This document shows positions 2,157 through 46,464 of a stretch of DNA of 64,000 nt, one piece after another. The notes beneath the pieces are model-generated. The model searched no databases. It was not told the DNA's origin and worked only from the letters and a program-made list of their open reading frames with translations. Position 1 is the first letter of the stretch; every line of letters begins with the position of its first letter. The stretch covers positions 1 through 64,000 of the forward strand of contig BROI01000036.1 of NCBI GenBank assembly GCA_027923505.1, written 5' to 3'. The translations under genes and the position numbers were made by a program. The DNA is from Mayamaea pseudoterrestris (Eukaryota).

Positions 2157-3351
2157 CTAGCATGAGTGTTCATGCTCCATTTTTTGCTCGGGCGAGTGGA
2201 TGTTTCGCCAGCGTGATTCCTTCGACAACATTGCCAGCCGCCAGCGCCTAGCAAGCACTCATGGTGACGCAAAACGGCAGCTTCAAGCATTGCACGCTTC
2301 CAAACAAACACTGCATGCCGGCATATGTTGCGGTGCTAACAAAGGCGCCCGTGGCGAAGAGTGCTAGCGTCGCTGGTGAATGCGCGCACATCACGCCGAC
2401 TTCCAGACTTGTCAGCGCCGCGTTGTAGCTCCACAGCCCCGCGGCAACGTCTGCCAGCGACGCTTCGTACAAGAAGCCTCCAGTCAACGGTGGATCCCAG
2501 CAATGCATGTTCCGCCAGCATGGGTGAGTACAGTGCCACGGCGGATGCAACGCCAATGCCAGTCAAACTTGAATCGACGATGTAAATTTGCGACAAGCCC
2601 TTGAGCGGCGTCAATAGCACTTGCGTGGCAGTCGTGCTGGTTGCTGCAGCTGTTACTTCCGGAGATATCAAACTGTTGTCGCCTGTTGCAGCAGCAGCAG
2701 CTGCCATCAAGTCGGTAGCTGTTGGATTTGCAGCTACTTTACTGGCAGCAAGTGCAAGCGTTGTTGGCGCTGCAACAGACATTATCGACTGCTTTGCCAG
2801 TAGCATGGTCAGCGCCACCAGATTGAACGCCAACGTCCACTGCGGCATGCTCGCATTTCGGAGACGGAGCGTCGTCACGGTGGCTGCCGGCGCTCCGACC
2901 GTCGTCAAACAAAGTGCCGTCAAACTACTGCTGACAGTATGCAACGCATTGTAGGGCAGCAGCCGTGGCGCAAAGCATCCATTGTACGCCAAGAGACCAT
3001 TGGAAATGTCTTGAATGCTGTCGTGATTTTGCTTGTTTTCGTTGCTAACAGCTGCTGCTTTTGCCGTAGCCACCCACGGATCGCCCAGCGCCAAACTTGC
3101 CAGCAAAATGCCGCCGCATGTTGGTGAATGCAGAAGCAAGACTTGGGCCACGCCGGTGCATGCATACTGCGAATGTGTTGAAAGGTGCTGAATTTGCTGC
3201 TGGTTGCTACAACGTTTGTCGGCGGATTGTTTCGTTCATCTTCGTCTTGCTGATGGCTCGCAAAGCATCGAAACAGCTCGTCGTGTGAGGGGCGAACGCA
3301 GAAATTACCGGCGTGACGGCCTGCCGCCGCTCGCCAGAGTCGAACGGCCAT
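2157..3351 (-). pseudogene. Urea transporter (UT/SLC14 family) pseudogene
   Basis: UT motifs are spread over different frames: TGVAQVLLLHSPTCGGILLASLALGDPWVA, NGLLAYNGC, KGLSQIYIVDSSLTG, AGLWSYNAAL, CLKLPFC and a C-terminal HSPE. Frameshifts near 3160, 2487 and 2198; in-frame TAG at 2248-2250. Confidence 0.75.
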
Positions 3352-3879
3352 GGTGACACGAGTGCTGGTGGATGTGGAGGCGATTCGTTCTGTACTCTTT
3401 GGCGGTCGTGGTTTGCGCAATTGACGATTCAAAACTTACAGAAACGAACGCTTAAAAGTACATTCCTGTCGCACCATTACTCAGTCTGCGCTCGCCAATT
3501 CGCGTAATTTTGCAGTTCTTCTTGCGATCTCGTTTTAGCAATTTGTACACTACGACGTAGGTAGTCGCAGACGGCCCAGTCTATCGATTATTCTATGTAA
3601 AAGCAAGGGCAGCGGTTACCAGTATGATGAAGCGATCGATTGGTCAATAGAAATGCGATATCCAAATGGACAAGCTCTCCGTCGCGCTTTGAATCCCAAT
3701 TGTTCATCGCAATATCTTACAGTAATCGAGTTTATGGCAACTCATTGAGTTTATGGTAACTAGCAGCTAACAACTGGTCCATCCAGGTCCAAGACTTCTC
3801 TCGTGGTGGATACAGAATCGCATCAACGTCCGAAATCGCACCAAAAGTTTATCGCCCACGGCACTCACCACTGTACCCT

Positions 3880-15409: not shown

Positions 15410-17524
15410 CTATGCCAGTCTATGTTTGACGTACTGAATTTGATAGCGCCTCACATTGGCCTCGTACAAATCCTTCCAAATGGCGGAGCGTTCCTTTGCA
15501 ACGGCACCACCTTCGCCACTCGTCGCTTCTCCATCAACAATGAGCGGCCTCCGATGATTGACTCCGGCACTATAGTCCCACATGCATTTTTTCAAAAAGC
15601 CTTCCACTCGCGTGCGGTCTTCGCTTGGACACAACGTTTCGCCCGACAGTCGCAGCAAGTCGGCGCAAACACCAAACAAACGATCATTCGCAAGCAAATG
15701 GTCCAAAATGGGTGAGCAGTGAAAGTCGACACCTTCCACGCAAACGTCTGGCAGTCGTAGTTTGGGAGTTGCACCAGGAGCGACAAAATCTGACACTTTT
15801 TGCACGCTCAAGTTGATTATGTTCGACGGATGCACTGCTCGTGGAACGTTTGTCCACGTCAATGGCGCCGTGGACTCTGCATCTACTTTTATTTGCAGCT
15901 CGCCAGACAGTGCCGTCCGACTCGCGAATCGATTCGCCCATACGTTTGCATATTGATGCAGCATTTGAACGTCGCAAAGCATGCCTCCGTACTCGGCGCG
16001 CGCCAGAATGGACCAGACCAATGTTTGATCAGTGCTAGACAGTGAATTGTTCCAATCAGTTGTATTTAGTCCATCTAGAGAAACATGATCAAGTCGCGAT
16101 GTTGCTACAGCTAAATTCGTTTCACTCGTGGTCGTATTGTTTGAGTTTGCACCAGCTGTAGCATTTTCTCCATCGCTCCCAACAATATCCTTGAACGAAC
16201 AACACGCCACCTGATAAATGATTCGCAACACTCGTTCCATCAACGCTTTCGTCACCACAAAGCCTTTCGATTCTGCCATGACGAGCCACACCAGCAATCC
16301 AAAGTCTGGATGCAGCGTCGCATCTTCCAAAACGATTATGGGCAATCGTCGGAGCAACTCACCCATGGCCTTGTCGGCTAGTTCCATGGCAATCTTGACG
16401 GCCGCCAGTGGTCGTTGTTTCCGCACAGCCTTTTGCAGCATAGATTTTAGTACGGAAACGGATAGTGACGAGTGCTTCTGGACGAGTCGACCTATGCTCC
16501 TGGTGTCGCCGCAGCAGAAACTGGCAAGCTCCAAGTTGATGGGCCGTTTATGTTGCGTCTTGAAACTATTGTTGCGCAGCAGGACCTGGGCCGACCAATA
16601 AGGCTGCTGCTGGTCAGTGTCATGTGATGCACTCGTCGCCAGAGAGACTGTTCCATCTTGGTGCAGGTAAAAGTGTTGCTGGATGGGTTGGAGCGACGGT
16701 GCACCCCTCTTGCCGCCAAAGACCTTTTTGGAACGTTGCATCATTTGCGTAAATACATTACTTTGCGGCTTTGTCAATGTATCTGAAACTGATGGTTGCG
16801 TAGCATCCTCCTCGGATGCAGATACTGTCTGCGTATCAATAGTTTGCGAACACTCTTGCGTCAATGATGCTGCATTCGAAGGCAGCGCCTGCGTCGGCAA
16901 ACCACGCTCCGCGCCATCAAGACTGACGCGGGGCAGCGGTTGCGTGGCGAGCGACGTTTGGGTGCTTGCCGTCAGAAATGATGGTGCTGGCGAAGGCTCG
17001 TCGTGCGATAACATGGCGTCATCATCATCACTGTCGCAGCATCGATCGCAATCCATGGTCATTTTTGAAGGCGAAAATGCGACTGAATCGCTCGCTGGTG
17101 ATCCGCCAGTCGTCACGGGGCTTGTCATTGTTGAATTTCCGATCGATGCGGAACTTGTCGTTGTCGCTGCATGCTCTACTTCTTGCATCTTGTCGTCAGG
17201 AGATGGCAGAGCAGAGTCACTACATTGACTGTTGCAGCAGCCTTGCGTCTGACTGTCATGAACAGTTACTGTCACAGCCTGGTCGTTCAAAATAGCAGCA
17301 GCTGCACGACTCCGTTTCATGCATATATCAAGATGCGCATTAATTGTTTCGGCCAAAACGTGCTTGCCGCAGCCGGCGGGGCAGGCGACGAAGCGAGATT
17401 CACTTGACAGTTTCCTGTTACTATTGGTAGAATGCTTCCCGCGCTTGGCGCTCGTCATGAGATACGAAAAGGCATTGTTATCATTGCTACTTCTCTTGCT
17501 GTGATTCGATTCATTCTTTGACAT
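15410..17524 (-). CDS. UBZ4-type zinc finger protein with C-terminal MgsA/WRNIP1 lid-like helical domain
   Basis: CPAGCGKHV...INAHLDIC; LKSMLQKAVRK...LLRRLPIIVLED; GGMLCD; GVDFHCS. Long disordered linker between the two parts. Confidence 0.6.
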   Translation of the reverse strand: MSKNESNHSKRSSNDNNAFSYLMTSAKRGKHSTNSNRKLSSESRFVACPAGCGKHVLAETINAHLDICMKRSRAAAAILNDQAVTVTVHDSQTQGCCNSQCSDSALPSPDDKMQEVEHAATTTSSASIGNSTMTSPVTTGGSPASDSVAFSPSKMTMDCDRCCDSDDDDAMLSHDEPSPAPSFLTASTQTSLATQPLPRVSLDGAERGLPTQALPSNAASLTQECSQTIDTQTVSASEEDATQPSVSDTLTKPQSNVFTQMMQRSKKVFGGKRGAPSLQPIQQHFYLHQDGTVSLATSASHDTDQQQPYWSAQVLLRNNSFKTQHKRPINLELASFCCGDTRSIGRLVQKHSSLSVSVLKSMLQKAVRKQRPLAAVKIAMELADKAMGELLRRLPIIVLEDATLHPDFGLLVWLVMAESKGFVVTKALMERVLRIIYQVACCSFKDIVGSDGENATAGANSNNTTTSETNLAVATSRLDHVSLDGLNTTDWNNSLSSTDQTLVWSILARAEYGGMLCDVQMLHQYANVWANRFASRTALSGELQIKVDAESTAPLTWTNVPRAVHPSNIINLSVQKVSDFVAPGATPKLRLPDVCVEGVDFHCSPILDHLLANDRLFGVCADLLRLSGETLCPSEDRTRVEGFLKKCMWDYSAGVNHRRPLIVDGEATSGEGGAVAKERSAIWKDLYEANVRRYQIQYVKHRLA

Positions 17525-17803
17525 GGTGTGATGAGCCAGCAAGGAATGGAACGTTTGTTACGTTTTGTGCGGTCGCTTGGTTGATCGATCGGCGGAAGCG
17601 ATGAATGTGTCCGTTGGAGTACCGATACGATAAGTTACTCTGCGACATAAGTTTTCACTCCAAAAAATAAACCCGCGACTACACCGGTTATATCTATCAT
17701 ACGATTAGCTGCTAGACTGCGGGAACATATTTATTAAATTGTTAAGGCCTCTCTTACATAGCCTACTCTTTAATGTTTACCTTACTACACTTAAGAACGA
17801 CGT

Positions 17804-19468
17804 CTAAAAGGGAACGAATGGCTTGTCAATGATTGGCTTGTGCTTGCCCATTGTGCCGTGACTAACCATGGACCCCAACGCGTCCACCACAATCCGAAGG
17901 GCCATGAGCGAAGTGATATCCGCATGATCGTACTGTTGGCAAGTGGAAAGAAGAAGTAAGGGCGCGAGTCAGATTAATTAATGTGAGCAGCCTGCTATAC
18001 AGTAAGCGCAAGCCACAGTCATCCTCCATCCCATCCAAAAACAACACAGCGATATATACACATACCGGCGGCGACACTTCCACCACTTCCATGCCGCACA
18101 AGCCTTCCGCCGCAATGAGTCCCACCAGTTTCAGTGCCTCCCTTGGCAGTAAACCACCCGGTTCCGGCCATCCCGTCCCCGGCACAAAGGCCGCTTCAAT
18201 GCTGTCAATGTCGTAGGACATGTACACGGCGTCGCATCCATCCCACGCTCGATCCAGCGCCATTTCCGCAATCTTGTCAATGCCGTAATCTTCAATGTCT
18301 TCCATGGTGAAAATGTTGGTTTCGCGCTCCACCATGTTGGGCACTGCGGGACGAGGCACCTGCCAACCGCCAATGCCAATCTGCACCAAGTTCTTGGCGT
18401 TAATGTTTGGCAAGTTGGTGGCGTGAAAGTATGGCGTTGTGTGCTGCAATGTGAACAAAATGAAGAAGTCAATGGATGAGACAATGCATGAAACGAGGTA
18501 CTAGTCGATGAAACAAGACGTTTGTTTGCAGCAGTAACCACAATATACACGCACTTACCATTCGTTCGTCCATATCAAACTCCTGAATATCGGCATGTCG
18601 ATCAACATGAATAATGCCAATGTTTTTGCTCGTCACACTAGCAATCCCTCGTATCGTCGGAAACCCAATACTATGATCACCTCCCAGTATAATCGGCATA
18701 CTTCCCGTCGACGCCACAAACGCCACGGCGTTACTAATCTGATCAAACGACTTTTCCAAATTCGCCGGAATGGTGAAAACATCACCCGCATCGCACAGAC
18801 TCATTTGCTCGCGCAAGTCAATCCCGCGCTCGTAGTTGTAGGGCGTGTAGAGGGCGCTGATGCGGCGAATCCCCTGCGGACCAAACCGCGTGCCGGCGCG
18901 GTACGTGCAGCCGCCGTCAAAGGGGACTCCCAAAACAGTCGCGTCGAAGTTGCAAACGTCGCGCACGTTTTCGACAAACGGCGCCTTCATGAATGTCTGC
19001 GTTTAGTGTTGTGGAAGAGGAGAGGAGTTGTGACGTGTAATGGTGAAGGAGCATGGTGAGTTGAAGTGATGACAGCATGGCGAGCAAACGAAATCTGTCG
19101 CTCTTTTCTTGCATGACTCTCCTTCTCAATCCCTTTTACAATATACAACTATCTACCATATACATTTTACTCACATTAATTCCCGCAAAATGCGGCAGCT
19201 CGCCGCGCGAAAAGGTTGGAATGGACTTGTCATTAATGCTGCTGGCGCCCTGCAGCCCCATTTTCAGCACTCTCTCGGCTTCTTTTTCGGCATTCGTGGT
19301 GGGAATGGTGGCTTCCTTTAACGCGGCCTTCCAGCCCTTTGTGAGTTTGGGGTTCATGGGATCGGGGTGGTGGTGGCGGCGGAGATTGTTGTTGGAGGAG
19401 GAGGAGGCAGGAGCAATGGTGCTGCCGCGGTTCGCCAAGCGCCTGGAGAGAGGAACCAAGACGCGCAT
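17804..19468 (-). CDS. gdmH: Guanidine hydrolase (GdmH-type, arginase/agmatinase superfamily) with putative mitochondrial presequence (4 exons)
   Basis: Exons 19468-19175, 18996-18559, 18443-18066 and 17932-17804, all with GT-AG introns. SIPTFSRGELPHFAGINTFMKAP, TYRAGTRFGPQGIRRISALY, GGDHS, DRHAD, ERMHTTP, GIGGWQVPR, DID and GTGWPEPGGLLPRE closely match cyanobacterial Sll1077/GdmH as recalled. Confidence 0.85.
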
Positions 19469-19559
19469 TGTGAAATGAGGAAAATTGAAAAATGGAGTAA
19501 AACTGTGAGCTTGCGCGAATGAAAGATTGCCGTCAAGGTGCAGCAAAAAAAGAGGGACG

Positions 19560-19716
19560 GATGTATGTTGATCTTGTGAGGATGTCACAAACGAAAGGCG
19601 CGTCGCGGTCCTCGGAAGTTTCAATCGAGTATTGTGACGTCATACAAAATGTCAATGGCGTCATCAAGGTCAATTAGTGACGTGGCAGTGCGTCACGCGA
19701 GCGCGCTTCCTCGACC
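19560..19716. promoter_or_regulatory. Bidirectional promoter with CRE/aureo-box-like TGACGT sites
   Basis: About 250-bp gap between head-to-head genes. TGACGTCA at 19635-19642, TGACGTGG at 19678-19685, plus further TGAC half-sites. Confidence 0.45.
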
Positions 19717-21933
19717 ATGAGGATTCATCCAAATTTTCCGCTCGTCTCGAACTCCGCACCTTACATAGCAACTATTTACATGCAATCACATTTAATAATG
19801 AATCATGAGACACTATTAGCATTGACAGAGTCTGATGTTTCCGTTCCAACGACTGTCATTGTCATGGACAGCAACCATGAGTGTCTGCCGCCACGCTTTT
19901 CAACAAAGCACGCGCAAATCGTCCTGACGCCGCAGGAGGACGAGCTGTTTGACTTGCTGACACGAGTCATGAATGACTATAATAACAGTAACGGAAACAA
20001 TGGAATGAATGGCGAACATATGCAAGATGATGAAACAGCGCATCAATGTTCCTCGTCGTCGCAATCATCTACTCCACCCTCTCAACAAAACAATTTACTC
20101 CAAGTCCGCGTCGCTGGCGGCTGGGTCCGCGACAAGTTACTGGGAAGAATGACGCAGGATATTGACGTGACGGTCAACTGCATCTCCGGCGTAGACTTTG
20201 CGCGAAGAGTGGTGGACTGCGTGTCCAAGGAGCGGGAGCAGCATGAAAACGAGCAAGTGACACGTAAACTTCCTCACGTGGCAGTCATTTCCGCCAACCC
20301 CGATCAAAGCAAGCACTTGGAGACGGCCACCTTTTCGTTGCGCGGCATGGACATTGACGTTTGCGCGCTGCGGTCGCACACCGAAGTCTACCAAGATTCG
20401 CGCATTCCGGCCAGCAGCACCGGCACGCCGCTGTCCGACGCCATGCGCCGCGACTTTACCATGAATGCGCTCTTTTACAATTTACAAACGAAACGTGTGG
20501 AGGATTGGACGAGGCGGGGTATTTTTGATTTGATGAAGGGAGTGATTGTCACGCCGCCCGTCATGCTCATGGATGATGATCATAGTGGGAGTGTAACAAC
20601 AGCTGCAACGCCTGATGGTACTATTGCTCCGCCGCTACACGCCGATGAAGACTTGTTGCTGGAGCAATCCGCCTACTCGACCTTTCACGACGACCCGCTC
20701 CGCGTGCTGCGCGCCGTGCGCTTTGGCGTGCGATACAATTACCAGTTGCATTCATCCATTATCAAGGCGGCGCAGACATTGGACATCCACGTTGCGCTCC
20801 ACCAAAAAGTGTCGCGCGAGCGGGTCGGCAAGGAATTGGTCGGCATGATGAAGAGTTGCGACATGGCGGTGCGAGCGTTGCGCATGATGTGGGAATTGAA
20901 ACTGGCGGGGTCAGTGTTTATACTTCCAACAACTAGTGAATGCGGCAATGACGATAATGGTGTCGTGACGCTGGTGCATGGAAGAATTGCTGGAAACGAG
21001 TATCCCACCAAGGGCAGCCATGGCGTTTTGGAGGCGGCGCAAGCTCACGTGCGCGAGCTTGGTTGGGTCGAGTCAATGCGACTGCTTGGTTTACTGCCGC
21101 AAGTGATGCAAGCATACCATGAGACGAAAAGTGTGACAGCAAACAATGTGACTCCTCTTGATGAGTTTTTGCTACCTTTGGCAACCTTTTTGCTGCCGTT
21201 TCGAAAACTTTTATACGAGCAAGGCAAGACCATGGCGACATTGAAGCAGTACTCGGTGGTGCGCTACATGGTACGCGATTCCATCAAGTTTCCGAACAAG
21301 CACATTCACGCCATCGGTTTGCTGATGGATCACGTGGATGCCATGTCGGCGCTGCTACAGGACTGGGGTGCATTTGCATTTAACATGCACGCCACTGCAT
21401 CGGGGCGGGCGACGATGAGCGAGAGTGCGGTTGACAAACAGACGGCTCAATTTCGGCTGCAAGCTGGTTTGCTGTTACGGGCAACGAAGGATTTATGGGT
21501 CACTTGTCTACTGCTGGCATCGATTATACTACCAGGTGATGATCCCGCATTGCAAAGGACTCACGCAACAATGGCAATCTATCAGCTCGTATTGTCACTT
21601 GGTCTTGACGAGTGCTGGAAGACGAAACCAATTTTGGATGGCAAGGCGATCATGACGACCTTGGCGCTACCAAAGGGCCCTCAAGTTGGAGGATTTATGG
21701 AGGAGCAAGTGCGATGGATGCTCATGCATCCGCACGGAAACGAGGCAGACCTTGTGCAACATCTACGTCTATTTCAGGAACGGTTGCAGCAGGAGCAAGG
21801 ATCGAATGACAGTGTTGATGGCAACCTAAAGAATCAGCCTACTGTGGATGGAGGAGGAACGAGACCAGCGGAATTAATGAACACATCTTTGGACAGTGCT
21901 CAGCATGTTTCGAAGCGCATGCATGTCGAATGA
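19717..21933 (+). CDS. CCA1: CCA tRNA nucleotidyltransferase (class II)
   Basis: RVAGGWVRDKLLG, DIDV, NPDQSKHLETA, DAMRRDFTMNALFYN, FHDDPLRVLRAVRF, VSRERVGKE. Start may instead be 19780 or 19798. Confidence 0.85.
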   Translation: MRIHPNFPLVSNSAPYIATIYMQSHLIMNHETLLALTESDVSVPTTVIVMDSNHECLPPRFSTKHAQIVLTPQEDELFDLLTRVMNDYNNSNGNNGMNGEHMQDDETAHQCSSSSQSSTPPSQQNNLLQVRVAGGWVRDKLLGRMTQDIDVTVNCISGVDFARRVVDCVSKEREQHENEQVTRKLPHVAVISANPDQSKHLETATFSLRGMDIDVCALRSHTEVYQDSRIPASSTGTPLSDAMRRDFTMNALFYNLQTKRVEDWTRRGIFDLMKGVIVTPPVMLMDDDHSGSVTTAATPDGTIAPPLHADEDLLLEQSAYSTFHDDPLRVLRAVRFGVRYNYQLHSSIIKAAQTLDIHVALHQKVSRERVGKELVGMMKSCDMAVRALRMMWELKLAGSVFILPTTSECGNDDNGVVTLVHGRIAGNEYPTKGSHGVLEAAQAHVRELGWVESMRLLGLLPQVMQAYHETKSVTANNVTPLDEFLLPLATFLLPFRKLLYEQGKTMATLKQYSVVRYMVRDSIKFPNKHIHAIGLLMDHVDAMSALLQDWGAFAFNMHATASGRATMSESAVDKQTAQFRLQAGLLLRATKDLWVTCLLLASIILPGDDPALQRTHATMAIYQLVLSLGLDECWKTKPILDGKAIMTTLALPKGPQVGGFMEEQVRWMLMHPHGNEADLVQHLRLFQERLQQEQGSNDSVDGNLKNQPTVDGGGTRPAELMNTSLDSAQHVSKRMHVE

Positions 21934-22279: not shown

Positions 22280-24879
22280 CTATGCATTGTGCACGCGACC
22301 ATCGTCAAAATTTTCTGCATTCAATTCATCATCATTGCCATGATATGACGAATCGCCCATGACAGTGGCAGCCGGCGTGTCTCCGCCAACATGACGACGT
22401 CGCAGACGATCTTCTTCTCGCCTCTGTTTAAATGCTGAAATAAATTCGGGATTCACCTCATCTTCACCACCCAGAAGAAACAGCCCACCATGGTAGCTGG
22501 TATCCAGACCAACAATTTCTTCCAGTGGGTCACTTCGAAACCAGCCTCTACAGAGGAATGAAAAAATTTGTCAGCAAGATGTTTTGGCGAGCAAAAATAA
22601 TATCAGCAAAAATGTTAGGCCAAACATGCTAATTACCTCCAATCTAGCCACACGAAAAAGGGAAACATGATTACAGTGACCCAGCTGCAAATGAACAAAA
22701 TTCCAACCAGCTGACATGCCAGTAAGTTTCCGTCTCGGCCATTGAACACCCAACCAGCATGGTCGGCATTGCCATACGCTTCCTTTACCCAACGAGGCGA
22801 TGCAAACAAGCCACAGGCGATGACACCCTTTAATCGCAAATAAAGTTGATGAGTCAAGTTCACATGCGGCGGTAAATGACGTTCAAACGCTAATTGGAAT
22901 GACGCGACACACTTACCCACATGCCGCCCAACATGTGAACAGGAATGGCTGAAGGAAGAAACAAAATCGTTGTAAGCATCTATCATTGAAAATGGCAGCG
23001 CTGCTGCAGCGCCTTATTACCTACCATCAACAGCGTCATCAAGTCGCAAGCGAACCAAGCCTTTCGATCCTGCCAAGTAGACAGTACCGGCAACAATGCC
23101 CGTAATCACCGCTCCCCAAGGCTCCATTACTCCACATCCACTCGTCACTGCGACCAAGCCTGCCAAGGAACCGTTCATGGCCATTTTCAGGTCGAAATAG
23201 GATTCACCCGTCATGCGTTCGAGTATGCAGAGATTCAGAAACAATGCCGTAATGCCGGCGGCACCCGCCGAAAGGGTAGTATTAACGCCAGCCAGTGCGG
23301 CAATGACATGTGCGTTGGGACCAGAGTTTGGTAATGCTGCGGGTCAAGCGAAGGATCATCGGTGAGTGTGTTAATTTAAATCGTATCAAACGCCAACCCG
23401 AAACATCATGAAGCAGAACGATGGGACTGGAGTGGTCAATGATTTGTCAACGCAATTGTAAGCGACTTACCGCTCCCACAGTTAAAACCGTACCTGCAGG
23501 AAGTTGTAAGAAAGGAGACGAATTAGAATCTGTTACACGGACAGATTGAGCATCGCGCTTAGCACTTAATGAGCCTGCTTACCATCCGAACCACAGAATG
23601 AGCCTAGTCGATACAAGAACCATGCAAAACTTGTGAGTTGAGAAAAGAAACAACTTAAAAAGCACTCTTCGAAACCGTACGTACGTTCCAAGCATTTGCA
23701 GCGACATGGACGATCCAGGAAACTCCTTTGGCTTTTCTAGTCTCCGTCCAGTCTCATCGTGAAACCGTCCTCGTCGAGGCCCAAGAATAACAGTCGCAAA
23801 GAGCGCCGTGGTGCCACCCGTAATATGCACAACGCCACTTCCCGCAAAGTCAATCATGCCAATGCCCCACAGTGGATCAATCGAGTAGGCGCTCAAGAAA
23901 CCTTGCGGATTCCAAATGGCGTGCACAACGATTGGATAGACCCATCCCACCATGACGAGTGAATACGACAAGTAAGCGGCCATTTGACATCGCTCCGCCA
24001 ATGTACCAGCAATAATAGTGACAGACGCCGCTGAAAAGGCATACTGAAACATCCAAAAGGCCAAGTCTTCCACGTTCATGAGGAAAAAGTCAGTGACACC
24101 AATGAACGTTTTGTTTGGCGAATACGGATCGGATCCGCCAAAGGCAAAGGCGTAGCCAATGGTATACCAAGCCAGTGAAGCGCCGCAGGCATCCAGTAAA
24201 TTCTTGAGCAAGGTGTTTTGAATATTCTTCTTTCGAACAGCGCCGGCGCAAACCTGTTGACGATGCGTATATGCAAGCGAGTGAGCGAGATTTAGCACAT
24301 GTACGTCAGGCATCGTTTCACAGTCACTGCAGATTGTAGCTTAAAACCACTATACTTGTTTTTATCGTACGCACCATGGCAAAGCCAGCCTGCATAAAGA
24401 AAATGAGACTGGCGGCAAACACGAGCAGGACGGATCGGGCATACTCGTGCGTGCCAACCTCCTTTTGCATGGTGCGAGCAATGCTGCGTACGGAAAATAA
24501 AAGTGAGAAATGAGATATAGTACAGACGTGTTTCAATTTCGCCAGTAAAAGTTTTTTCACGTCGCGATGCAAGGTGCAATGGAACGAAAAGCCTTTACAT
24601 CGTTGACGTTGTTGGAAAGCTCCTCATCGCTCATGAGTTCAGCAAAACAATTTGGTTCTCCATTGACAAGACATGGTAAATTGTCGACTCCTCATTATCA
24701 ATATCAAAACGATCAAATTCCTTCTTGACAAGCGAGTAGAGAATCCATTTCCCGTTACCACTTTCACATTCGTACCATTCAATGAGCACCGTCACATTGG
24801 CATTCTCTAGGTTCGTTTCATTGCTCAGCTGCAGGCAGTAGCCCACCAAGTCGGAGCCGGGCGTTGCCTTGGAGCCCAT
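22280..24879 (-). CDS. AMT1: Ammonium transporter AMT1-type (9 exons)
   Basis: Exons about 24879-24775, 24483-24375, 24253-23685, 23603-23583, 23493-23471, 23336-23025, 22948-22917, 22827-22637 and 22547-22280. Motifs FFMQAGFAM, FQYAF, GTLAER, DFAGSGVVH, LWFGWYGFN, NGSLAGLVAVT, DDAVDAIPVH, EEIVGLD. Confidence 0.92.
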
Positions 24880-37087: not shown

Positions 37088-39689
37088 ATGACATTACTGA
37101 CTCGGCAGATGCTGCGGCAGTCTCGAGCCGGATTTATGAAGACGCGAAATCCTCGTTTCGCTGCGGCAATTCTGCCATGTTCCAATTTATCGTTACATTA
37201 TTCCTTATTCTCGACAAGTACACTGGACCAATGGACGCAAACAGCCCAAAAGGAACTGAAAGCGTCCAAACTGTCCGTGGAGGAACTGCAAACGACCCGC
37301 GTCACGCCGGAGAATGTGACGCTGCAGCCCGTCTACTACGACTTGTCGAGTGACAATCCAGACTTGCCGGGCGTCTTTCCCTACACGCGAGGACCGTATG
37401 CGACCATGTAGTGAGTCATTAAATAGTACTGTATATAACATGCAGTTGAAGAGAATGAATGGAGCTGAATGAAAATGAAAAAGAGCTTACGTTTGTTCAC
37501 GACGCTTGACTGTGCTTCATTCTCACTGAGACTCACACTCACAAATCATTCATAACATCTACTATATGCAGCACGGCCCGTCCTTGGACCATTCGTCAGT
37601 ACGCCGGTTTCAGCACCGCCAAGGAATCCAATGCATTTTACAAGAAGAACCTAAAAGCGGGTCAGCAAGGTTTGAGCGTGGCCTTTGACTTGCCGACGCA
37701 CCGGGGCTACGACTCGGACCATGCGCGCGTGTTGGGAGACGTTGGCATGGCGGGTGTTCCGATTGATACGCTCAACGATATGCAGGCGCTGTTTGCAAAC
37801 ATTGACTTGACGCAAGTGTCGGTGAGCATGACCATGAATGGAGCGGTACTACCAGTGCTGGCGTTTTACATACAAGCGGCGCTGGAAGCGAATTATGACA
37901 CGCCGAAAACGCCCGCACAAGTCTTGAGCAACTTGAAAGGCACAATTCAAAACGACATTCTCAAGGAGTTCATGGTCCGCAACACGTTTATATACCCGCC
38001 GCAGCCAAGCATTCAGCGCGTCATTGCCGACATTATGGGTTATGCGGCCAAGCATTTGCCCAAGTTCAACACGATTAGCATTAGCGGCTACCACATGCAG
38101 GAGGCGGGAGCGGATGCGGCACTGGAAGTGGCCTTTACCATTGCGGATGGACTGGAGTATATGCGCACGGCGGTGAATCATGCGGGGTTGAGTGTGGATG
38201 ACGTTGCGCCGCGACTCAGTTTCTTTTGGGGAATCGGCATGAACTGGTATACAGGTATGTTTGCGATGGAAAGGAAAGCAGGGCTTGTTGTAACAATTGA
38301 AACGACTCATCTCTACATTTTGCCGCATCAGAAATTGCCAAGATGCGAGCCGCTCGTCGAATTTGGGCGGAGCTGGTCAAGAAGGAATTTGCTCCAAAGA
38401 ACGACAAGAGCCTCTTGCTTCGAACTCATTGTCAAACATCAGGATACTCGCTCACAGAGGCACAACCCATGAACAATATTGTACGGACAACGATTGAAGC
38501 CATGGCTGCCATTATGGGTGGAACGCAATCGCTTCACACCAATTCGTATGACGAAGCAGTCGGCCTGCCAACGGTGCAGACGGCTCGGGTCGCCCGCAAC
38601 ACGCAGCTGATTCTGCAGGAGGAGACTGGCATTTGCGACGTGGCGGATCCCTGGGGTGGATCGCACATGATGGAAGCTTTGACGGATGAGTTGCACGAGA
38701 AGGTAATGGATATTATTCGAGAAGTGGAAGGCACCGGAGGCATGACCAAGTACATTGCCAGTGGTTTGGCCAAGCTGCGCATTGAGGAGAGTGCCACGCG
38801 AAAGCAGGGTCGCATTGATAGTGGGCAGGAAATTGTGGTTGGCATAAACAAGTATCGGCTGACAAAGGAAGAGGAGGACGCTGAACGCATTGACGTTTTG
38901 AAAATTGATAATACGGCAGTGCGGCGAGAGCAGATTGAACGCATGCAGCAGGTACGAGCGGAGCGAAACGAAGCGGCTGCGCAGGAAGCACTGGCTAAAC
39001 TGGAAGCAAGCGCGAGATTGGACCGCAGTACAGCGAATGGTGATGATCCAAACAATCTACTGAAGCTTTGCATTGGTTGTGCAGCTGCGCGCTGTACTCT
39101 CGGCGAGATGTCCTTGGCGATGGAGAATGCTTGGGGGCGCCACGTTCCAACCGGTTCTGTCGTCCAAGGTGCCTACGCGTCTTCGTTTAATCACAGCGGT
39201 TCCGGAAACAAGAACGAGGAGTATGAACGCGTCTTGAACCGAGTGAAGGCTTTTGAGTCTCGCGAGGGCCGACGGCCTCGCATTCTAGTGGCCAAGATGG
39301 GACAGGATGGGCACGATAGAGGGGCCAAAGTTATTGCTAGTGGCTTTTCTGACCTTGGCTTTGATGTCGACATTGGGCCGCTCTTTCAAACGCCTGAAGA
39401 GGTTGCGTTGCAGGCGATTGACTCTGATGTGCATGTTATTGGAATTTCATCTCAAGCTGCTGGGCATCGAACACTGTTGCCGGCATTGAAGGAGGAGCTT
39501 GAGGAAAAGGGAGCTGGGCATTTAATTGTTGTTGCCGGTGGCGTCATTCCACCACAAGACTACGACTTCTTGCTGAATGAAAGCAAGAGCTGTAGTGCCA
39601 TTTTTGGCCCTGGAACGCGAGTAATAGCTTGCGTGGAAAATGTCCTGGATCTGATAGAAAAGGAAAGCGCAAACCAACAGGCTGCGTAA
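37088..39689 (+). CDS. MUT: Methylmalonyl-CoA mutase, mitochondrial (3 exons)
   Basis: [73 protein letters not shown]12-binding motif. Introns 37411-37571 and 38255-38331; Arg-rich presequence. Confidence 0.95.
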
Positions 39690-45189: not shown

Positions 45190-46464
45190 TTACTCGGCAT
45201 CCGCCAAGGCTGCCAACTCTTCCTCCTCCTGCTGCTTGGTGACCGTGGCCGCATACTGGTCACTGACCTTGCACTGCACGCCGACAAAGTTGGTGACATT
45301 GCCATTGGCGTCGCGCAAGGCCGCAATGAAGAACTGGTTCCAAAAGGTGGTTCCATCGACGCGGTAGTTGAGCAAGCACACCGACATGTCATTACCCTGC
45401 TCAATGGCCTTGCGAATGCGCTCCACCGCCTTGGGGTCAGTCTCGGGGCCTTGCAGAAAGCGACAGTTGCGGCCCAGAATCTGGTCGAGACTGTAGCCAG
45501 TCAAGTTGAGGAAACCCTGACTCGCGTAGACAATGGGGTTATCCGGAAGACTTGGATCAGTCACGACAAAGTTTTGCTGCGCCGTCTGGAGCGCCTTGAT
45601 GAAGGAAAAGTCAGGATCATCTAACACCTTGTTGGCAATGCCCTGCGAGGACGCCAAGAGACCATCGACATCCGACTGACTCTCCTTCTTGCTGAGGAGC
45701 TCGTCCGCCTTTGATTCGCCCAAGTGCTGGCGAATGGCCTGCTTCAACTTTTCGTTCTCCTCCTTGAGCAGCGTGACCGACTGCTGGAGCGACTCGAGAA
45801 GAAACTTTTTGCGAATGCGCGAGCGCTTGGCGTGCTCGCGGTTGCGCTCACTGTGTGAATGGGAATTGAAAATAGGCAGGAGAAAAGAGGATGAAAAGGA
45901 TGAGACAGATTCATAAGTAAGTGTCACTGAATCTAGCAAGTACGACTAGAAGCCACATCGTTCCAATCTTGTGACTCACCGCCGCTCGGACTTTTGCTGC
46001 TCACTCATCTTGCGATCGCCGCGACTGCTGCTCTTCTTTTTCTTGGGCGCCGCGTACTGCAAGTGATGCGCCGCCTGCGGCGCATGCTTGAAGGGCACCA
46101 ACTCGGTGGCTTGTCCAGCATCTTCGGCGCGCCCCATGGTGAGCGCCGCCTTGGAGTTGTCGTACAGATTCGTCGTGTAGAGACCACCGCCCTGCTGGAC
46201 GGGAACGAACTGTCCATCACTGGACGGCTTGGACGCCATGGTGGCAAAGGTGGGACCTTCGCCCGAGTTCAAGAGACCGTCCTCGTCGTCGTCATCCTTT
46301 TGCTCGCTGAGAAAGACCGTGTCACCGTCCGGCGTGAAGACCACGTCTCCGAAAATGTCGTCCAAGTTGAGTTGGGCAGTCGTTGACTTGCTGCCCATCA
46401 TGGATGACTTGGGGGCGGCGTCGGAGCCGTGCGAGGCGGAAAAGAGGGGAGGAGGGACGCTCAT
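45190..46464 (-). CDS. AUREO1a: Aureochrome 1a (bZIP-LOV blue-light transcription factor), 2 exons
   Basis: LNLDDIFGDV N-terminus, ERR|ERNREHAKRSRIRKK bZIP, LOV GRNCRFLQG. Intron 45851-45979. Confidence 0.93.

What the first reader, a model, noticed from the sequence alone, without database searches (positions are those of the whole stretch)
17804..19468. Nuclear-encoded, intron-containing GdmH-type guanidine hydrolase with a mitochondrial-type presequence
Seen in sequence: the spliced protein is not a generic agmatinase. It has DRHAD in place of DAHxD, GTGWPEPGG in place of GTGTP, plus ERMHT, GIGGWQVPR and the long N-terminal arm (GLQGASSINDKSIPTFSRGELPHFAG). Established: these features characterise the Ni-dependent guanidine hydrolase Sll1077/GdmH (guanidine to urea + ammonia), and GdmH-like sequences have, as I recall, been noted in heterokont algae. 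Seen: three spliceosomal introns and an Arg/Ser-rich, acid-free N-terminal extension (MRVLVPLSRRLANRGSTIAPASSSS...). Inference: a fully domesticated, mitochondrial guanidine-scavenging enzyme feeding the diatom urea/urease and ammonium assimilation network. No HypA/HypB-like nickel chaperone gene is in the window, so metal loading may rely on urease accessory proteins.
Basis: partly seen in the sequence, partly recalled or inferred. Interest (0 to 1): 0.82.

Follow-up and report, generated by a model that had tools for sequence, protein, structure and literature searches.

The report
Diatom guanidine hydrolase mislabelled agmatinase
This is a real, spliced nuclear gene of a diatom whose product is filed as an agmatinase but has every sequence hallmark of the nickel enzyme that splits free guanidine into urea and ammonia, an enzyme described so far only in bacteria.

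Summary
A minus-strand gene of four exons (19468..17804; three phase-0 GT..AG introns of 178, 115 and 133 nt) encodes 412 aa. It is letter for letter the deposited 'putative agmatinase 2' of Mayamaea pseudoterrestris. Intron-less contigs in three runs show all three splices.

The protein scores 516 and 507 bits against the two characterised guanidinases (Synechocystis Sll1077, Nitrospira inopinata). The next solved enzyme, guanidinobutyrase, scores 165. It keeps all six metal ligands and the published specificity residues (T129, H245, W336, E366). It falls below NCBI's curated agmatinase cut-offs.

In my trees the stramenopile and haptophyte homologues form one clade. That clade is sister to SAR324-type marine bacteria, inside a proteobacterial clade, so bacterial gene transfer is the likeliest origin. 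Cyanobacterial sequences could not be placed in the tree.

The first 32 residues have no acidic residue, six Arg and no signal-peptide core, which fits a mitochondrial presequence. This is composition only. The conserved Arg at -2 that I took for a cleavage motif also occurs in the bacterial homologues.

No nickel chaperone, riboswitch or transporter partner lies nearby. No paper I could search describes a eukaryotic guanidinase, but Funck 2022 was not readable. Verdict: a new eukaryotic member of a known enzyme kind.

The parts
17804..19468 (-). Whole coding region (ATG at 19468, TAG at 17806..17804) of the 412-aa GdmH-type ureohydrolase gene
   Evidence: The spliced translation is identical to P0008.
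19175..19468 (-). Exon 1, residues 1-98: variable N-terminal extension plus the conserved N-terminal arm
   Evidence: Residues 44-98 align to Sll1077 (chain 7esr) 14-68; residues 48-98 align to N. inopinata (9fek) 26-76.
19373..19468 (-). Residues 1-32 (MRVLVPLSRRLANRGSTIAPASSSSNNNLRRH): candidate mitochondrial presequence. It has 6 Arg and 0 Asp/Glu, and the first acidic residue is D36.
   Evidence: This is composition only; no predictor was run.
18997..19174 (-). Intron 1, 178 nt, GTGAGT..CAG, phase 0
   Evidence: Removal is shown by the loose end at 19175 and by pieces ending at 18996 in runs X2-X4.
18559..18996 (-). Exon 2, residues 99-244. Contains T129 (18904-18906), metal ligand H206 (18673-18675) and DRHAD 230-234 (18589-18603; ligands D230, H232, D234).
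18444..18558 (-). Intron 2, 115 nt, GTAAGT..CAG, phase 0. It splits the ERM|HT motif.
   Evidence: Joint 18443->18559 in contigs of X2, X3 and X4.
18066..18443 (-). Exon 3, residues 245-370. Contains H245 (18441-18443), ligands D322 and D324 (18204-18212), GTGWPEPGG (18153-18179) with W336 (18168-18170), and E366 (18078-18080).
17933..18065 (-). Intron 3, 133 nt, GTATGT..CAG, phase 0
   Evidence: Joint 17932->18066 in contigs of X2, X3 and X4.
17804..17932 (-). Exon 4, residues 371-412 plus the stop codon. This is the C-terminal helix and a tail (..GKHKPIIDKPFVPF) shared with the SAR324-type and proteobacterial homologues.

Best explanation
The gene encodes a eukaryotic member of the GdmH/guanidinase clade of the arginase (ureohydrolase) superfamily.

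Inferred mechanism, by homology to Sll1077 and the Nitrospira inopinata enzyme:
- It is a homo-oligomeric enzyme with a two-metal centre (nickel, or nickel plus manganese), held by H206, D230, H232, D234, D322 and D324.
- The centre activates water to hydrolyse free guanidine to urea plus ammonium.
- T129 and W336 narrow the pocket so that larger guanidino compounds such as agmatine are excluded.

The gene is transcribed and spliced from the diatom nucleus; this step is shown.

The N-terminal 30 or so residues most likely act as a mitochondrial import signal. This is inferred, at about 0.55. Urea and ammonium would then be released where diatoms run their urea-cycle chemistry.

The lineage of the gene is most simply explained by transfer from a proteobacterial or SAR324-like marine bacterium into an ancestor of ochrophytes. 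Copies also occur in haptophytes and a chromerid. On transfer it lost the bacterial partners: the ABC importer, the small His-rich protein and the riboswitch.

The confidence given (0.72) is for the enzyme assignment (guanidine hydrolase of the GdmH clade); the mitochondrial location taken alone is about 0.55.
For: Gene model and expression.

Family:
- Pfam PF00491 on exons 2 and 3.
- Full-length phmmer against the PDB: 7esr/7oi1 (Sll1077) 516.2 bits over residues 44-400; 9fek (N. inopinata guanidinase) 507.3 bits; next best is guanidinobutyrase 3nio at 165.2 bits, and agmatinases score 126 or less.
- Exon 2 is identical to Sll1077 at 102 of 146 positions (my count of the match line).

Published criteria (PMC11410670, passages read):
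- Thr at PF00491 position 15, His at position 134, Trp at position 223, plus Glu.
- Ligands H182, D207, H209, D211, D299 and D301 in N. inopinata numbering.
- Through the alignments these map to T129, H245, W336, E366 and to H206, D230, H232, D234, D322, D324. All are kept.

Distribution of the signature in my 87-row alignment:
- Trp is present in 60 of 60 complete GdmH-like rows; the 61st is truncated.
- Trp is present in 0 of 26 other ureohydrolase rows, including E. coli SpeB.

Not agmatinase by NCBI's curated cut-offs: TIGR01230 scores 148.9 against 174.3 needed; NF002564 scores 200.4 against 302.

Careful IQ-TREE of 59 rows (supports are ultrafast bootstrap / SH-aLRT):
- Eukaryotes, 19 rows: 95/90.
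- Eukaryotes plus SAR324-type group, 25 rows: 100/99.
- Plus Pseudomonadota, 42 rows: 100/98.

The prokaryotic relatives sit in guanidine-type contexts:
- NitT/TauT-like ABC importer upstream: substrate-binding protein in 68 of 80 loci, ATPase in 72 of 80.
- Urease genes beside the Rubrobacter copy.

Presequence:
- 0 acidic residues in 32 (p about 0.013 from the mature protein's composition).
- 6 Arg (p about 0.003).
- 11-residue hydrophobic moment 0.72 at residues 1-11, against a 95th percentile of 0.60 in the mature part.
- 63 of 92 (68%) eukaryote-like homologues have no acidic residue before R-x-HHP, against 7% of 76 prokaryotic ones.
- No hydrophobic core of signal-peptide strength.
Against: - No enzyme assay exists for any eukaryotic member.
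- The two characterised enzymes could not be put into my trees because no stored sequence was available. Clade membership with them rests on PDB scores and signature residues.
- N. inopinata guanidinase has a Km of 13.6 mM and a very minor activity on agmatine, so physiological substrate and flux are open.
- No nickel-loading partner was found. There is no HypA/HypB in the scanned window ORFs. The bacterial His-rich partner has no window match and no hit flagged as eukaryotic among its 11 hits.
- Presequence: the invariant Arg at -2 before HHP (92 of 92 eukaryote-like sequences) is also present in 76 of 80 prokaryotic loci, so it is inherited and is no evidence of a processing site.
- Bacterial N-termini are basic too: median R+K is 5 in both groups.
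- No targeting predictor was available.
Confidence: 0.72

Rival explanations
1. It is what the databases call it: an agmatinase (SpeB-like). It would convert agmatine to putrescine and urea in the polyamine and ornithine-urea-cycle network, as drawn in diatom metabolic models.
For: - All named homologues are labelled agmatinase, or are unnamed.
- Diatom papers list an 'agmatinase' among urea-cycle genes (PMC5156380 and PMC7542463, passages read).
- N. inopinata guanidinase shows a very minor agmatine activity.
Against: - It scores below both curated NCBIfam agmatinase cut-offs.
- Solved agmatinases score 111-126 bits, against 507-516 for the guanidinases.
- The position that is Trp here is Thr in E. 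coli SpeB, in the PGAP-named Paracoccus SpeB and in most other outgroup rows.
- Sll1077 was shown to degrade guanidine rather than agmatine (PMC8390497, passage read).
Confidence: 0.07
2. It is a GdmH-clade enzyme whose physiological substrate in algae is not free guanidine but another very small guanidino or amidino compound, or which works with Mn rather than Ni.
For: - The characterised enzymes have millimolar Km for guanidine, and the N. inopinata enzyme crystallised with one Ni and one Mn.
- No nickel chaperone was found here.
- Near relatives without the Trp (P0129, P0134) show that the wider clade has diversified.
Against: - All four specificity residues and all ligands are identical to the characterised enzymes.
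- Both characterised enzymes rejected methylguanidine, arginine, creatine, guanidinobutyrate and guanidinopropionate.
- Overall similarity is high, about 70% identity in exon 2.
Confidence: 0.13
3. The enzyme type is right, but the protein is cytosolic or located elsewhere. On this reading the N-terminal region is just the divergent, naturally basic N-terminus that the bacterial homologues also carry.
For: - Prokaryotic homologues also have basic leaders of roughly 8-25 aa and the same R-x-HHP motif.
- No predictor or experiment supports import.
- The AlphaFold model was too poor to say anything: mean pLDDT 64.4, with low confidence in conserved parts as well.
Against: - Acidic residues are absent from this region in 68% of 92 eukaryote-like sequences, against 7% of 76 prokaryotic ones.
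- The region varies in length (11-105 aa) and in sequence among eukaryotes, while the mature part is 75-90% identical.
- Residues 1-11 form the most amphipathic 11-mer of the N-terminal region.
Confidence: 0.3
4. The gene is bacterial contamination or a recent, unexpressed insertion rather than a working diatom gene.
For: The closest prokaryotic relatives are 66-76% identical. MAG bins contain look-alike contigs (L005).
Against: - It has three spliceosomal introns that are removed in contigs of three runs.
- It is flanked by eukaryotic genes on a 64-kb window.
- Orthologues occur in many diatom genomes and transcriptomes.
- The variants of a second allele fall at intervals that are multiples of three.
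Confidence: 0.01

Closest known systems
GdmH / Sll1077 of Synechocystis sp. PCC 6803 (PDB 7OI1, 7ESR), the Ni2+-dependent guanidine hydrolase
   Same: - Same fold family (PF00491).
- The alignment runs over residues 44-400 at 516 bits.
- Shares the N-terminal arm, DRHxD, ERMHT, GIGGWQVPR and GTGWPEPGG.
- All six metal ligands and Thr/His/Trp/Glu are kept.
   Different: - The diatom gene is nuclear, has three introns and is monocistronic.
- It has no guanidine-I riboswitch (no Rfam match in the window).
- No ghaA/ghaB (HypA/HypB-like) or gimABC transporter genes lie beside it.
- It carries an extra, acid-free N-terminal extension and the HHPDP..TKGWKAA segment that Sll1077 lacks.
- Its C-terminal tail differs.
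Guanidinase of Nitrospira inopinata (PDB 9FEK; Palatinszky et al. 2024, PMC11410670)
   Same: - 507 bits over residues 48-402, with the same signature residues.
- Like the diatom gene, it has no nickel chaperone nearby, and none is found in the genome according to the paper.
   Different: - It is bacterial, riboswitch-controlled and paired with an APC permease.
- It has no N-terminal extension.
Proteobacterial and SAR324-type gdmH-like genes (e.g. loci L001, L012, L095, L097)
   Same: - These are the nearest relatives, at 66-76% identity over residues about 30-408.
- They share the R-x-HHPD..GW N-terminal segment and the C-terminal ..IIDK.F.PF tail.
- They are sister or paraphyletic to the eukaryotic clade in both trees.
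   Different: - They sit in operons: an ABC importer upstream, and a small His-rich ORF immediately downstream in 76 of 80 loci.
- Their N-termini contain acidic residues.
- They have no introns.
SpeB agmatinase (E. coli b2937; PDB 7LOL/7LBA)
   Same: Same superfamily and the same six metal ligands.
   Different: - About 31% identity over residues 116-376; 111 bits in the PDB search.
- DAHxD instead of DRHxD, and Thr instead of Trp336.
- It lacks the 60-residue N-terminal arm.
- The diatom protein fails the SpeB equivalog cut-offs.

Membership tests
GdmH / guanidinase clade of the ureohydrolase superfamily | Arginase-family fold (PF00491) | tested here: met
   Exon 2 scores 1.3e-34 and exon 3 scores 4e-30, together covering profile positions 2-258 of 280.
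GdmH / guanidinase clade of the ureohydrolase superfamily | Six metal-binding residues (N. inopinata H182, D207, H209, D211, D299, D301; PMC11410670) | tested here: met
   H206, D230, H232, D234, D322 and D324, mapped through the alignments and checked.
GdmH / guanidinase clade of the ureohydrolase superfamily | Thr at PF00491 position 15 (Synechocystis T97 / N. inopinata T105) | tested here: met
   T129. Thr here is not exclusive to guanidinases: many outgroup rows also have it.
GdmH / guanidinase clade of the ureohydrolase superfamily | His at PF00491 position 134 (N. inopinata H222) | tested here: met
   H245, the first codon of exon 3. It is also present in many outgroup rows.
GdmH / guanidinase clade of the ureohydrolase superfamily | Trp at PF00491 position 223 (Synechocystis W305 / N. 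inopinata W313), the discriminating residue | tested here: met
   W336. Trp is present in 60 of 60 complete clade rows and in 0 of 26 other rows.
GdmH / guanidinase clade of the ureohydrolase superfamily | Groups in a tree with the experimentally characterised guanidinases | tested here: inconclusive
Indirect evidence: they are the best PDB hits by about 340 bits, and the clade that holds the window protein is separated from SpeB-like rows with support 100/99.
GdmH / guanidinase clade of the ureohydrolase superfamily | Hydrolyses free guanidine and depends on Ni2+ | not testable with these tools
   Needs enzymology and metal analysis.
GdmH / guanidinase clade of the ureohydrolase superfamily | Companion genes of the bacterial systems (guanidine-I riboswitch, GhaA/GhaB or the His-rich partner, ABC or APC importer) | tested here: not met
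   - No Rfam family in the window.
- No HypA/HypB/CobW or urease-accessory domain in 183 of 298 ORFs scanned.
- No match to the His-rich partner.
- These are not strictly defining: comammox Nitrospira lack chaperones, and 2 of 3 proteobacterial genomes with the gene have no HypA.
SpeB agmatinase | Reaches the curated NCBIfam agmatinase cut-offs (TIGR01230 equivalog, NF002564) | tested here: not met
   148.9 bits against 174.3 needed, and 200.4 against 302.
Mitochondrial matrix protein with a cleavable presequence | N-terminal extension that is positively charged, free of acidic residues, able to form an amphipathic helix, and lacks a signal-peptide core | tested here: met
   32 residues with 6 Arg and 0 Asp/Glu; moment 0.72 at residues 1-11; the maximum 9-residue Kyte-Doolittle mean for the eukaryote-like group has a median of 0.84. 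These are simple measures of my own, not a validated predictor.
Mitochondrial matrix protein with a cleavable presequence | A processing-peptidase motif (Arg at -2 or -3) that is specific to the imported form | tested here: inconclusive
   R-x-HHP occurs in 92 of 92 eukaryote-like sequences but also in 76 of 80 prokaryotic loci. The motif is inherited and proves nothing.
Mitochondrial matrix protein with a cleavable presequence | Observed localisation or import | not testable with these tools
   Needs a GFP fusion or organelle proteomics.

The most novel reading that the evidence does not exclude
Diatoms, brown algae and their relatives, haptophytes and at least one chromerid carry a bacterial-derived, nickel-dependent guanidinase that works inside the mitochondrion. 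On this reading:
- The 'agmatinase' drawn in diatom ornithine-urea-cycle models is really a guanidine-to-urea step.
- Free guanidine is an overlooked nitrogen source, or an internal waste product that is recycled, for major eukaryotic phytoplankton.
- This enzyme is a second nickel-requiring step in their nitrogen metabolism besides urease, and it is loaded without any known chaperone.
Probability: 0.45. Interest if true: 0.75.

Novelty: new member of a known kind. Interest (0 to 1): 0.6.

Why it matters
Guanidine breakdown by GdmH is presented in the literature I could read as a bacterial trait: PMC12186494, PMC12704784, PMC11410670 and PMC11018352 (passages read).

If the diatom enzyme does the same chemistry, three things follow:
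1. A gene used in diatom urea-cycle models under the name agmatinase needs re-annotation.
2. Eukaryotic phytoplankton join cyanobacteria and nitrifiers as consumers of guanidine, which bears on marine and freshwater nitrogen budgets.
3. Nickel demand in these algae would have a further component.

It is also a clean case of a bacterial operon gene that was stripped of its importer, metal helper and riboswitch, then given introns and a targeting extension. All of this is directly testable with a recombinant enzyme and growth assays.

Tried and rejected
1. Arg at -2 as evidence of a mitochondrial processing site. It is invariant in 92 of 92 eukaryote-like sequences, but the same R-x-HHP motif is in 76 of 80 prokaryotic loci. 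Dropped as evidence.

2. AlphaFold2 model on the 27-row alignment A1: mean pLDDT 64.4, with low confidence also in conserved segments 71-105 and 124-179. Not used, and no fold search was made.

3. Placing Sll1077, N. inopinata and cyanobacteria in the tree:
   - The representatives P0129 and P0134 turned out not to be those enzymes; they lack the Trp.
   - The plasmid collection held no cyanobacterial hit among the 40 of 51 records listed.
   - The genome-contig scan kept only the best 80 of 570 relatives, none cyanobacterial.

4. Own genome: none is held. So HypA/HypB, urease, urease accessory genes and a second agmatinase could not be sought in the diatom.

5. A eukaryotic homologue of the bacterial His-rich partner:
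   - tblastn on the window gave only weak hits (best E = 0.007; the others 1.9-7.0).
   - A database search with the SAR324 form gave 11 hits of 119-131 aa, none from a eukaryote-labelled source. This is a word-indexed search, so the negative is weak.

6. RNA holders: the look-up of sequencing runs listed no holder on record as RNA. The spliced contigs of X2-X4 were found only by laying them.

7. Whether Phatr3_J40880, the Phaeodactylum 'agmatinase' of PMC5156380, is the orthologue. No Phaeodactylum or Thalassiosira pseudonana name appears among the 120 listed hits. Left open.

8. Literature:
   - Searches found no paper on a eukaryotic or diatom guanidine hydrolase.
   - Search 88 and one search found nothing on this gene in the organism's transcriptome paper.
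   - Funck et al. 2022 (Nature) is not held and may mention eukaryotic homologues.
   - Supplementary tables and the full tree of PMC11410670 were not opened.
Full report
**The observation**

The region 17804..19468 holds a minus-strand gene. I located the splice sites and checked them.
- Exon 1 is 19468..19175 (98 codons).
- Intron 1 is 19174..18997 (178 nt, GTGAGT..CAG).
- Exon 2 is 18996..18559 (146 codons).
- Intron 2 is 18558..18444 (115 nt, GTAAGT..CAG).
- Exon 3 is 18443..18066 (126 codons).
- Intron 3 is 18065..17933 (133 nt, GTATGT..CAG).
- Exon 4 is 17932..17804 (42 codons plus TAG).

All introns are in phase 0. The ATG at 19468 is the first in-frame ATG after an upstream stop.

The translation spliced from the window is identical to a 412-aa database protein, P0008, which NCBI names 'putative agmatinase 2 [Mayamaea pseudoterrestris]'.

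The gene is expressed and spliced as modelled. Four coded runs of one study hold the stretch (library kind not on record). When laid on the window:
- Run X1 covers all 30 bins.
- Runs X2, X3 and X4 have no depth in the intron bins or outside about 17671-19516.
- Contigs of X2, X3 and X4 join 17932 to 18066 and 18443 to 18559, exactly my introns 3 and 2.
- Their loose end at 19175 continues with the letters of 18986-18996, which is intron 1.

**What the protein is**

Pfam finds only the arginase family, PF00491, on exons 2 and 3. Against all solved structures:
- 7esr/7oi1 (Synechocystis Sll1077): 516.2 bits, residues 44-400.
- 9fek: 507.3 bits, residues 48-402.
- Next best, guanidinobutyrase 3nio: 165.2 bits.
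- Agmatinases: 111-126 bits.

The single exons give the same picture. In exon 2, 102 of 146 positions are identical to Sll1077 (my count of the match line).

Palatinszky et al. 2024 (PMC11410670; passages read) identify 9FEK as the characterised guanidinase of Nitrospira inopinata. They also state the criteria they used to call a guanidinase:
- Thr at PF00491 position 15 (Synechocystis T97, N. inopinata T105).
- His at position 134 (H222).
- Trp at position 223 (W305/W313).
- In addition E344 and the ligands H182, D207, H209, D211, D299 and D301.

The PDB chains are offset by +2 from native numbering; this is consistent for Trp, His and Glu. With that offset these residues map to T129, H245, W336, E366 and to H206, D230, H232, D234, D322, D324 in the diatom protein. 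All are kept.

In an 87-row alignment:
- The Trp is present in all 60 complete GdmH-like rows (a 61st row is truncated).
- It is present in none of 26 other ureohydrolase rows, which include E. coli SpeB, a PGAP-named Paracoccus SpeB, seven paralogues from three proteobacterial genomes and 17 cluster representatives.
- Thr and His alone do not discriminate, because many outgroup rows have them too.
- The Arg of DRHxD is also present in two Trp-less near relatives, P0129 and P0134.

The protein stays below both curated NCBIfam agmatinase cut-offs: TIGR01230 scores 148.9 against 174.3, and NF002564 scores 200.4 against 302.

**Relatives and origin**

Homologues of 70-90% identity occur in many diatoms and also in other algae (the best 120 of 4268 and of 4758 hits were listed).
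- Diatoms include Amphora, Fistulifera, Seminavis, Fragilaria, Cylindrotheca, Chaetoceros, Skeletonema, Cyclotella and Thalassiosira exigua.
- Other lineages: brown algae (Ectocarpus, Sphacelaria), Phaeothamnion, the haptophyte Diacronema and the chromerid Vitrella.
- Where they carry a name, it is 'agmatinase'.

A scan of one genome per prokaryotic species found 570 relatives.
- The best 80 were kept, at 64-76% identity over residues about 30-408.
- They are nearly all Alphaproteobacteria (Rhodobacterales, Rhodospirillales, Hyphomicrobiales, Kordiimonadales), a few Gammaproteobacteria or Burkholderiales, and single MAG contigs labelled SAR324, Anaerolineae and Bacteroidota.
- None is cyanobacterial.
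- The SAR324 contig (L001) is genuinely bacterial: it has dense ORFs, an ABC ATPase upstream and a small ORF downstream.
- The 1556-nt 'Bacteroidota' contig L005 has a stop-containing insertion and looks like eukaryotic DNA in a bin. I left it out.

I built two trees.

Quick tree (87 rows):
- 21 eukaryote rows chosen from the 120 listed.
- 7 SAR324-type proteins.
- 33 of 85 gdmH-like loci.
- 7 of 14 paralogue loci.
- 2 SpeB.
- 17 of 150 cluster representatives.

Careful tree (59 of those 87 rows):
- The 28 rows dropped were long or degenerate representatives, near-duplicate loci and the truncated Hapterophycus row.
- Method: IQ-TREE with LG+G4, ultrafast bootstrap and SH-aLRT.
- Eukaryotes form one clade (19 rows, 95/90).
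- Their sister is the SAR324-type group (25 rows together, 100/99).
- Both lie inside a Pseudomonadota clade (42 rows, 100/98).
- The wider GdmH-like clade is separated from all SpeB-like rows (46 rows, 100/99).

The simplest reading is one transfer from a proteobacterial or SAR324-like bacterium into an ancestor of ochrophytes, with later spread to or from haptophytes and chromerids.

The limit of this analysis is that Sll1077, the Nitrospira enzyme and cyanobacterial homologues could not be added, because I had no stored copies. That they are more distant than the proteobacterial ones rests on two things: they are absent from the best 80 of 570 loci, and exon 2 is about 70% identical to Sll1077 against 80-84% for the SAR324-type group.

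**Context in bacteria and in the diatom**

In the prokaryotic loci the gene sits in a guanidine-type operon.
- A NitT/TauT-like ABC importer lies upstream: the substrate-binding protein in 68 loci, the permease in 69 and the ATPase in 72 of 80. Several of the misses have short upstream flanks.
- A small ORF with His-rich tails and no Pfam or NCBIfam family lies directly downstream in 76 of 80 loci.
- The Rubrobacter plasmid copy lies beside a solute symporter, formamidase and urease genes.
- Two of the three proteobacterial genomes searched have no HypA at all.
- Comammox Nitrospira have no nickel chaperones according to PMC11410670.

GhaA/GhaB-type helpers are therefore not universal for this enzyme.

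In the diatom window none of these partners is present.
- No Rfam family, and so no guanidine riboswitch.
- No HypA, HypB/CobW or urease-accessory domain in the 183 of 298 ORFs of 75 aa or more that I scanned. That set is all 150 small ORFs up to 42.8 kb and 33 long ORFs across the window.
- No match to the His-rich partner.

The flanking genes are eukaryotic and unrelated: a divergently oriented PolyA_pol-head (CCA-adding type) gene at 19681-21933 and an unannotated 715-aa ORF at 15410-17557. The window also holds a urea-transporter gene (about 2251-3435, minus) and an ammonium-transporter gene (about 23020-24340, minus). This could be chance.

**The N-terminal extension**

The alignment with Sll1077 starts at residue 44. 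The proteobacterial relatives align from about residue 30.

The first 32 residues of the diatom protein have these properties:
- 6 Arg (p about 0.003 from the mature protein's composition).
- No Asp or Glu (p about 0.013); the first acidic residue is D36.
- 7 Ser/Thr.
- The 11-mer at residues 1-11 has a helical hydrophobic moment of 0.72, above the 95th percentile (0.60) of the mature part.

Among 92 eukaryote-like full-length homologues, the stretch before HHP has these properties:
- It is variable in sequence and length (13-107 aa, median 28).
- It has a median of 6 Arg+Lys and 0 acidic residues.
- No acidic residue at all occurs before R-x-HHP in 68% of the sequences.
- There is no hydrophobic core of signal-peptide strength, which argues against the plastid route that diatoms use.

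I first took the invariant Arg two residues before HHP (92 of 92) as a processing-peptidase motif. The same R-x-HHP is in 76 of 80 prokaryotic loci, so it is inherited and says nothing about cleavage. Prokaryotic N-termini are also basic, with the same median of 5 Arg+Lys. They mostly contain acidic residues, though: only 7% of 76 have none. My choice of the bacterial start codons is rough.

A mitochondrial presequence is therefore the best reading, but it rests on simple composition measures. I put it at about 0.55.

**Mechanism proposed**

Shown:
- A spliced nuclear transcript.
- A product with an intact two-metal ureohydrolase site and the guanidinase-specific Thr/Trp pocket.

Inferred from the characterised relatives (PMC8390497, PMC11410670, PMC12704784 and PMC11271267, passages read):
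- Import into mitochondria, followed by use of the urea by urease.
- The source of guanidine (uptake or internal production) and the way nickel is inserted are unknown.

**Comparison with the literature**

The reviews and primary papers that I could read treat GdmH as bacterial and do not mention eukaryotic homologues: PMC12186494, PMC12623156, PMC12704784, PMC11410670, PMC11018352 and PMC9772407.

Diatom papers list an 'agmatinase' among urea-cycle genes (PMC5156380, PMC7542463 and PMC8777261). Whether that Phaeodactylum gene is the orthologue was not tested.

Nine full-text searches found no paper on a diatom or eukaryotic guanidine hydrolase. Funck et al. 2022 is not held and may say something on this. 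The supplementary tree of PMC11410670 was not opened.

Earlier notes of this scan describe bacterial gdmH operons and the His-rich partner on other genomes. None describes a eukaryotic copy.

**Verdict**

The mitochondrial location is plausible but untested, and the activity itself is untested.

It is a new (eukaryotic, intron-bearing, partner-less) member of a known enzyme kind. It is already in the databases under a probably wrong name.

Interest is moderate to high. If confirmed it would correct a node of diatom nitrogen-metabolism models and extend guanidine use to major eukaryotic phytoplankton.

Noticed in passing
L001-L080 (e.g. L012:7200-7655, L095:10172-10621, L097:10169-10684, L001:2546-2911): A small ORF (about 120-170 aa) lies directly downstream of the gdmH-like gene in 76 of 80 prokaryotic loci. 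It has His-rich tails and no Pfam or NCBIfam family. It is a candidate nickel helper replacing GhaA/GhaB. Earlier notes of this scan report the same on other genomes. No counterpart was found in the window, or flagged as eukaryotic among 11 database hits.
   Followed up: partly
window 2251-3435 (-) and 23020-24340 (-): A urea-transporter gene (PF03253, two ORF pieces) and an ammonium-transporter gene (PF00909, two ORF pieces) lie about 14.4 kb and about 3.6 kb from the guanidinase gene. That puts three nitrogen-scavenging genes within about 22 kb; this may be chance.
   Followed up: no
window 18135-18210, 19387-19426, 19472-19566: Half-depth variants at 18135, 18150, 18153, 18171, 18186 and 18210 are spaced in multiples of three. 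Small indels and variant letters occur upstream of the ATG in some contigs. This points to a second allele or haplotype that differs mostly at the same codon position.
   Followed up: no
L005 (contig JANNWD010000271.1, 1556 nt, labelled Bacteroidota MAG): A near full-length homologue (73% identity, residues 2-412) has a stop-containing insertion in the tblastn alignment and a eukaryote-type N-terminus (..SRHHHPSPFDPKSTRGW). It is probably algal DNA binned into a bacterial MAG.
   Followed up: partly
window 45190-45945 (-): An ORF with bZIP_1 plus PAS_9 domains, the domain pair of stramenopile aureochrome-type light-sensing transcription factors.
   Followed up: no
window 37510-39689 (+): Methylmalonyl-CoA mutase with a B12-binding domain, read in two overlapping ORFs (profile positions 43-259 and 259-512). 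This implies an intron or a frame change at about 38300-38470.
   Followed up: no
window 19469-19680: The guanidinase gene and a divergently oriented PolyA_pol-head (CCA-adding or poly(A) polymerase type) ORF at 19681-21933 are separated by only about 210 nt. Transcript contigs of the guanidinase gene reach at least to 19492.
   Followed up: no
P0129, P0134 (cluster representatives): These are near relatives of the guanidinase clade that keep DRHxD and all metal ligands but have Thr instead of the pocket Trp. P0129 also has a His-rich insertion. They are probably ureohydrolases of another, unknown specificity.
   Followed up: partly
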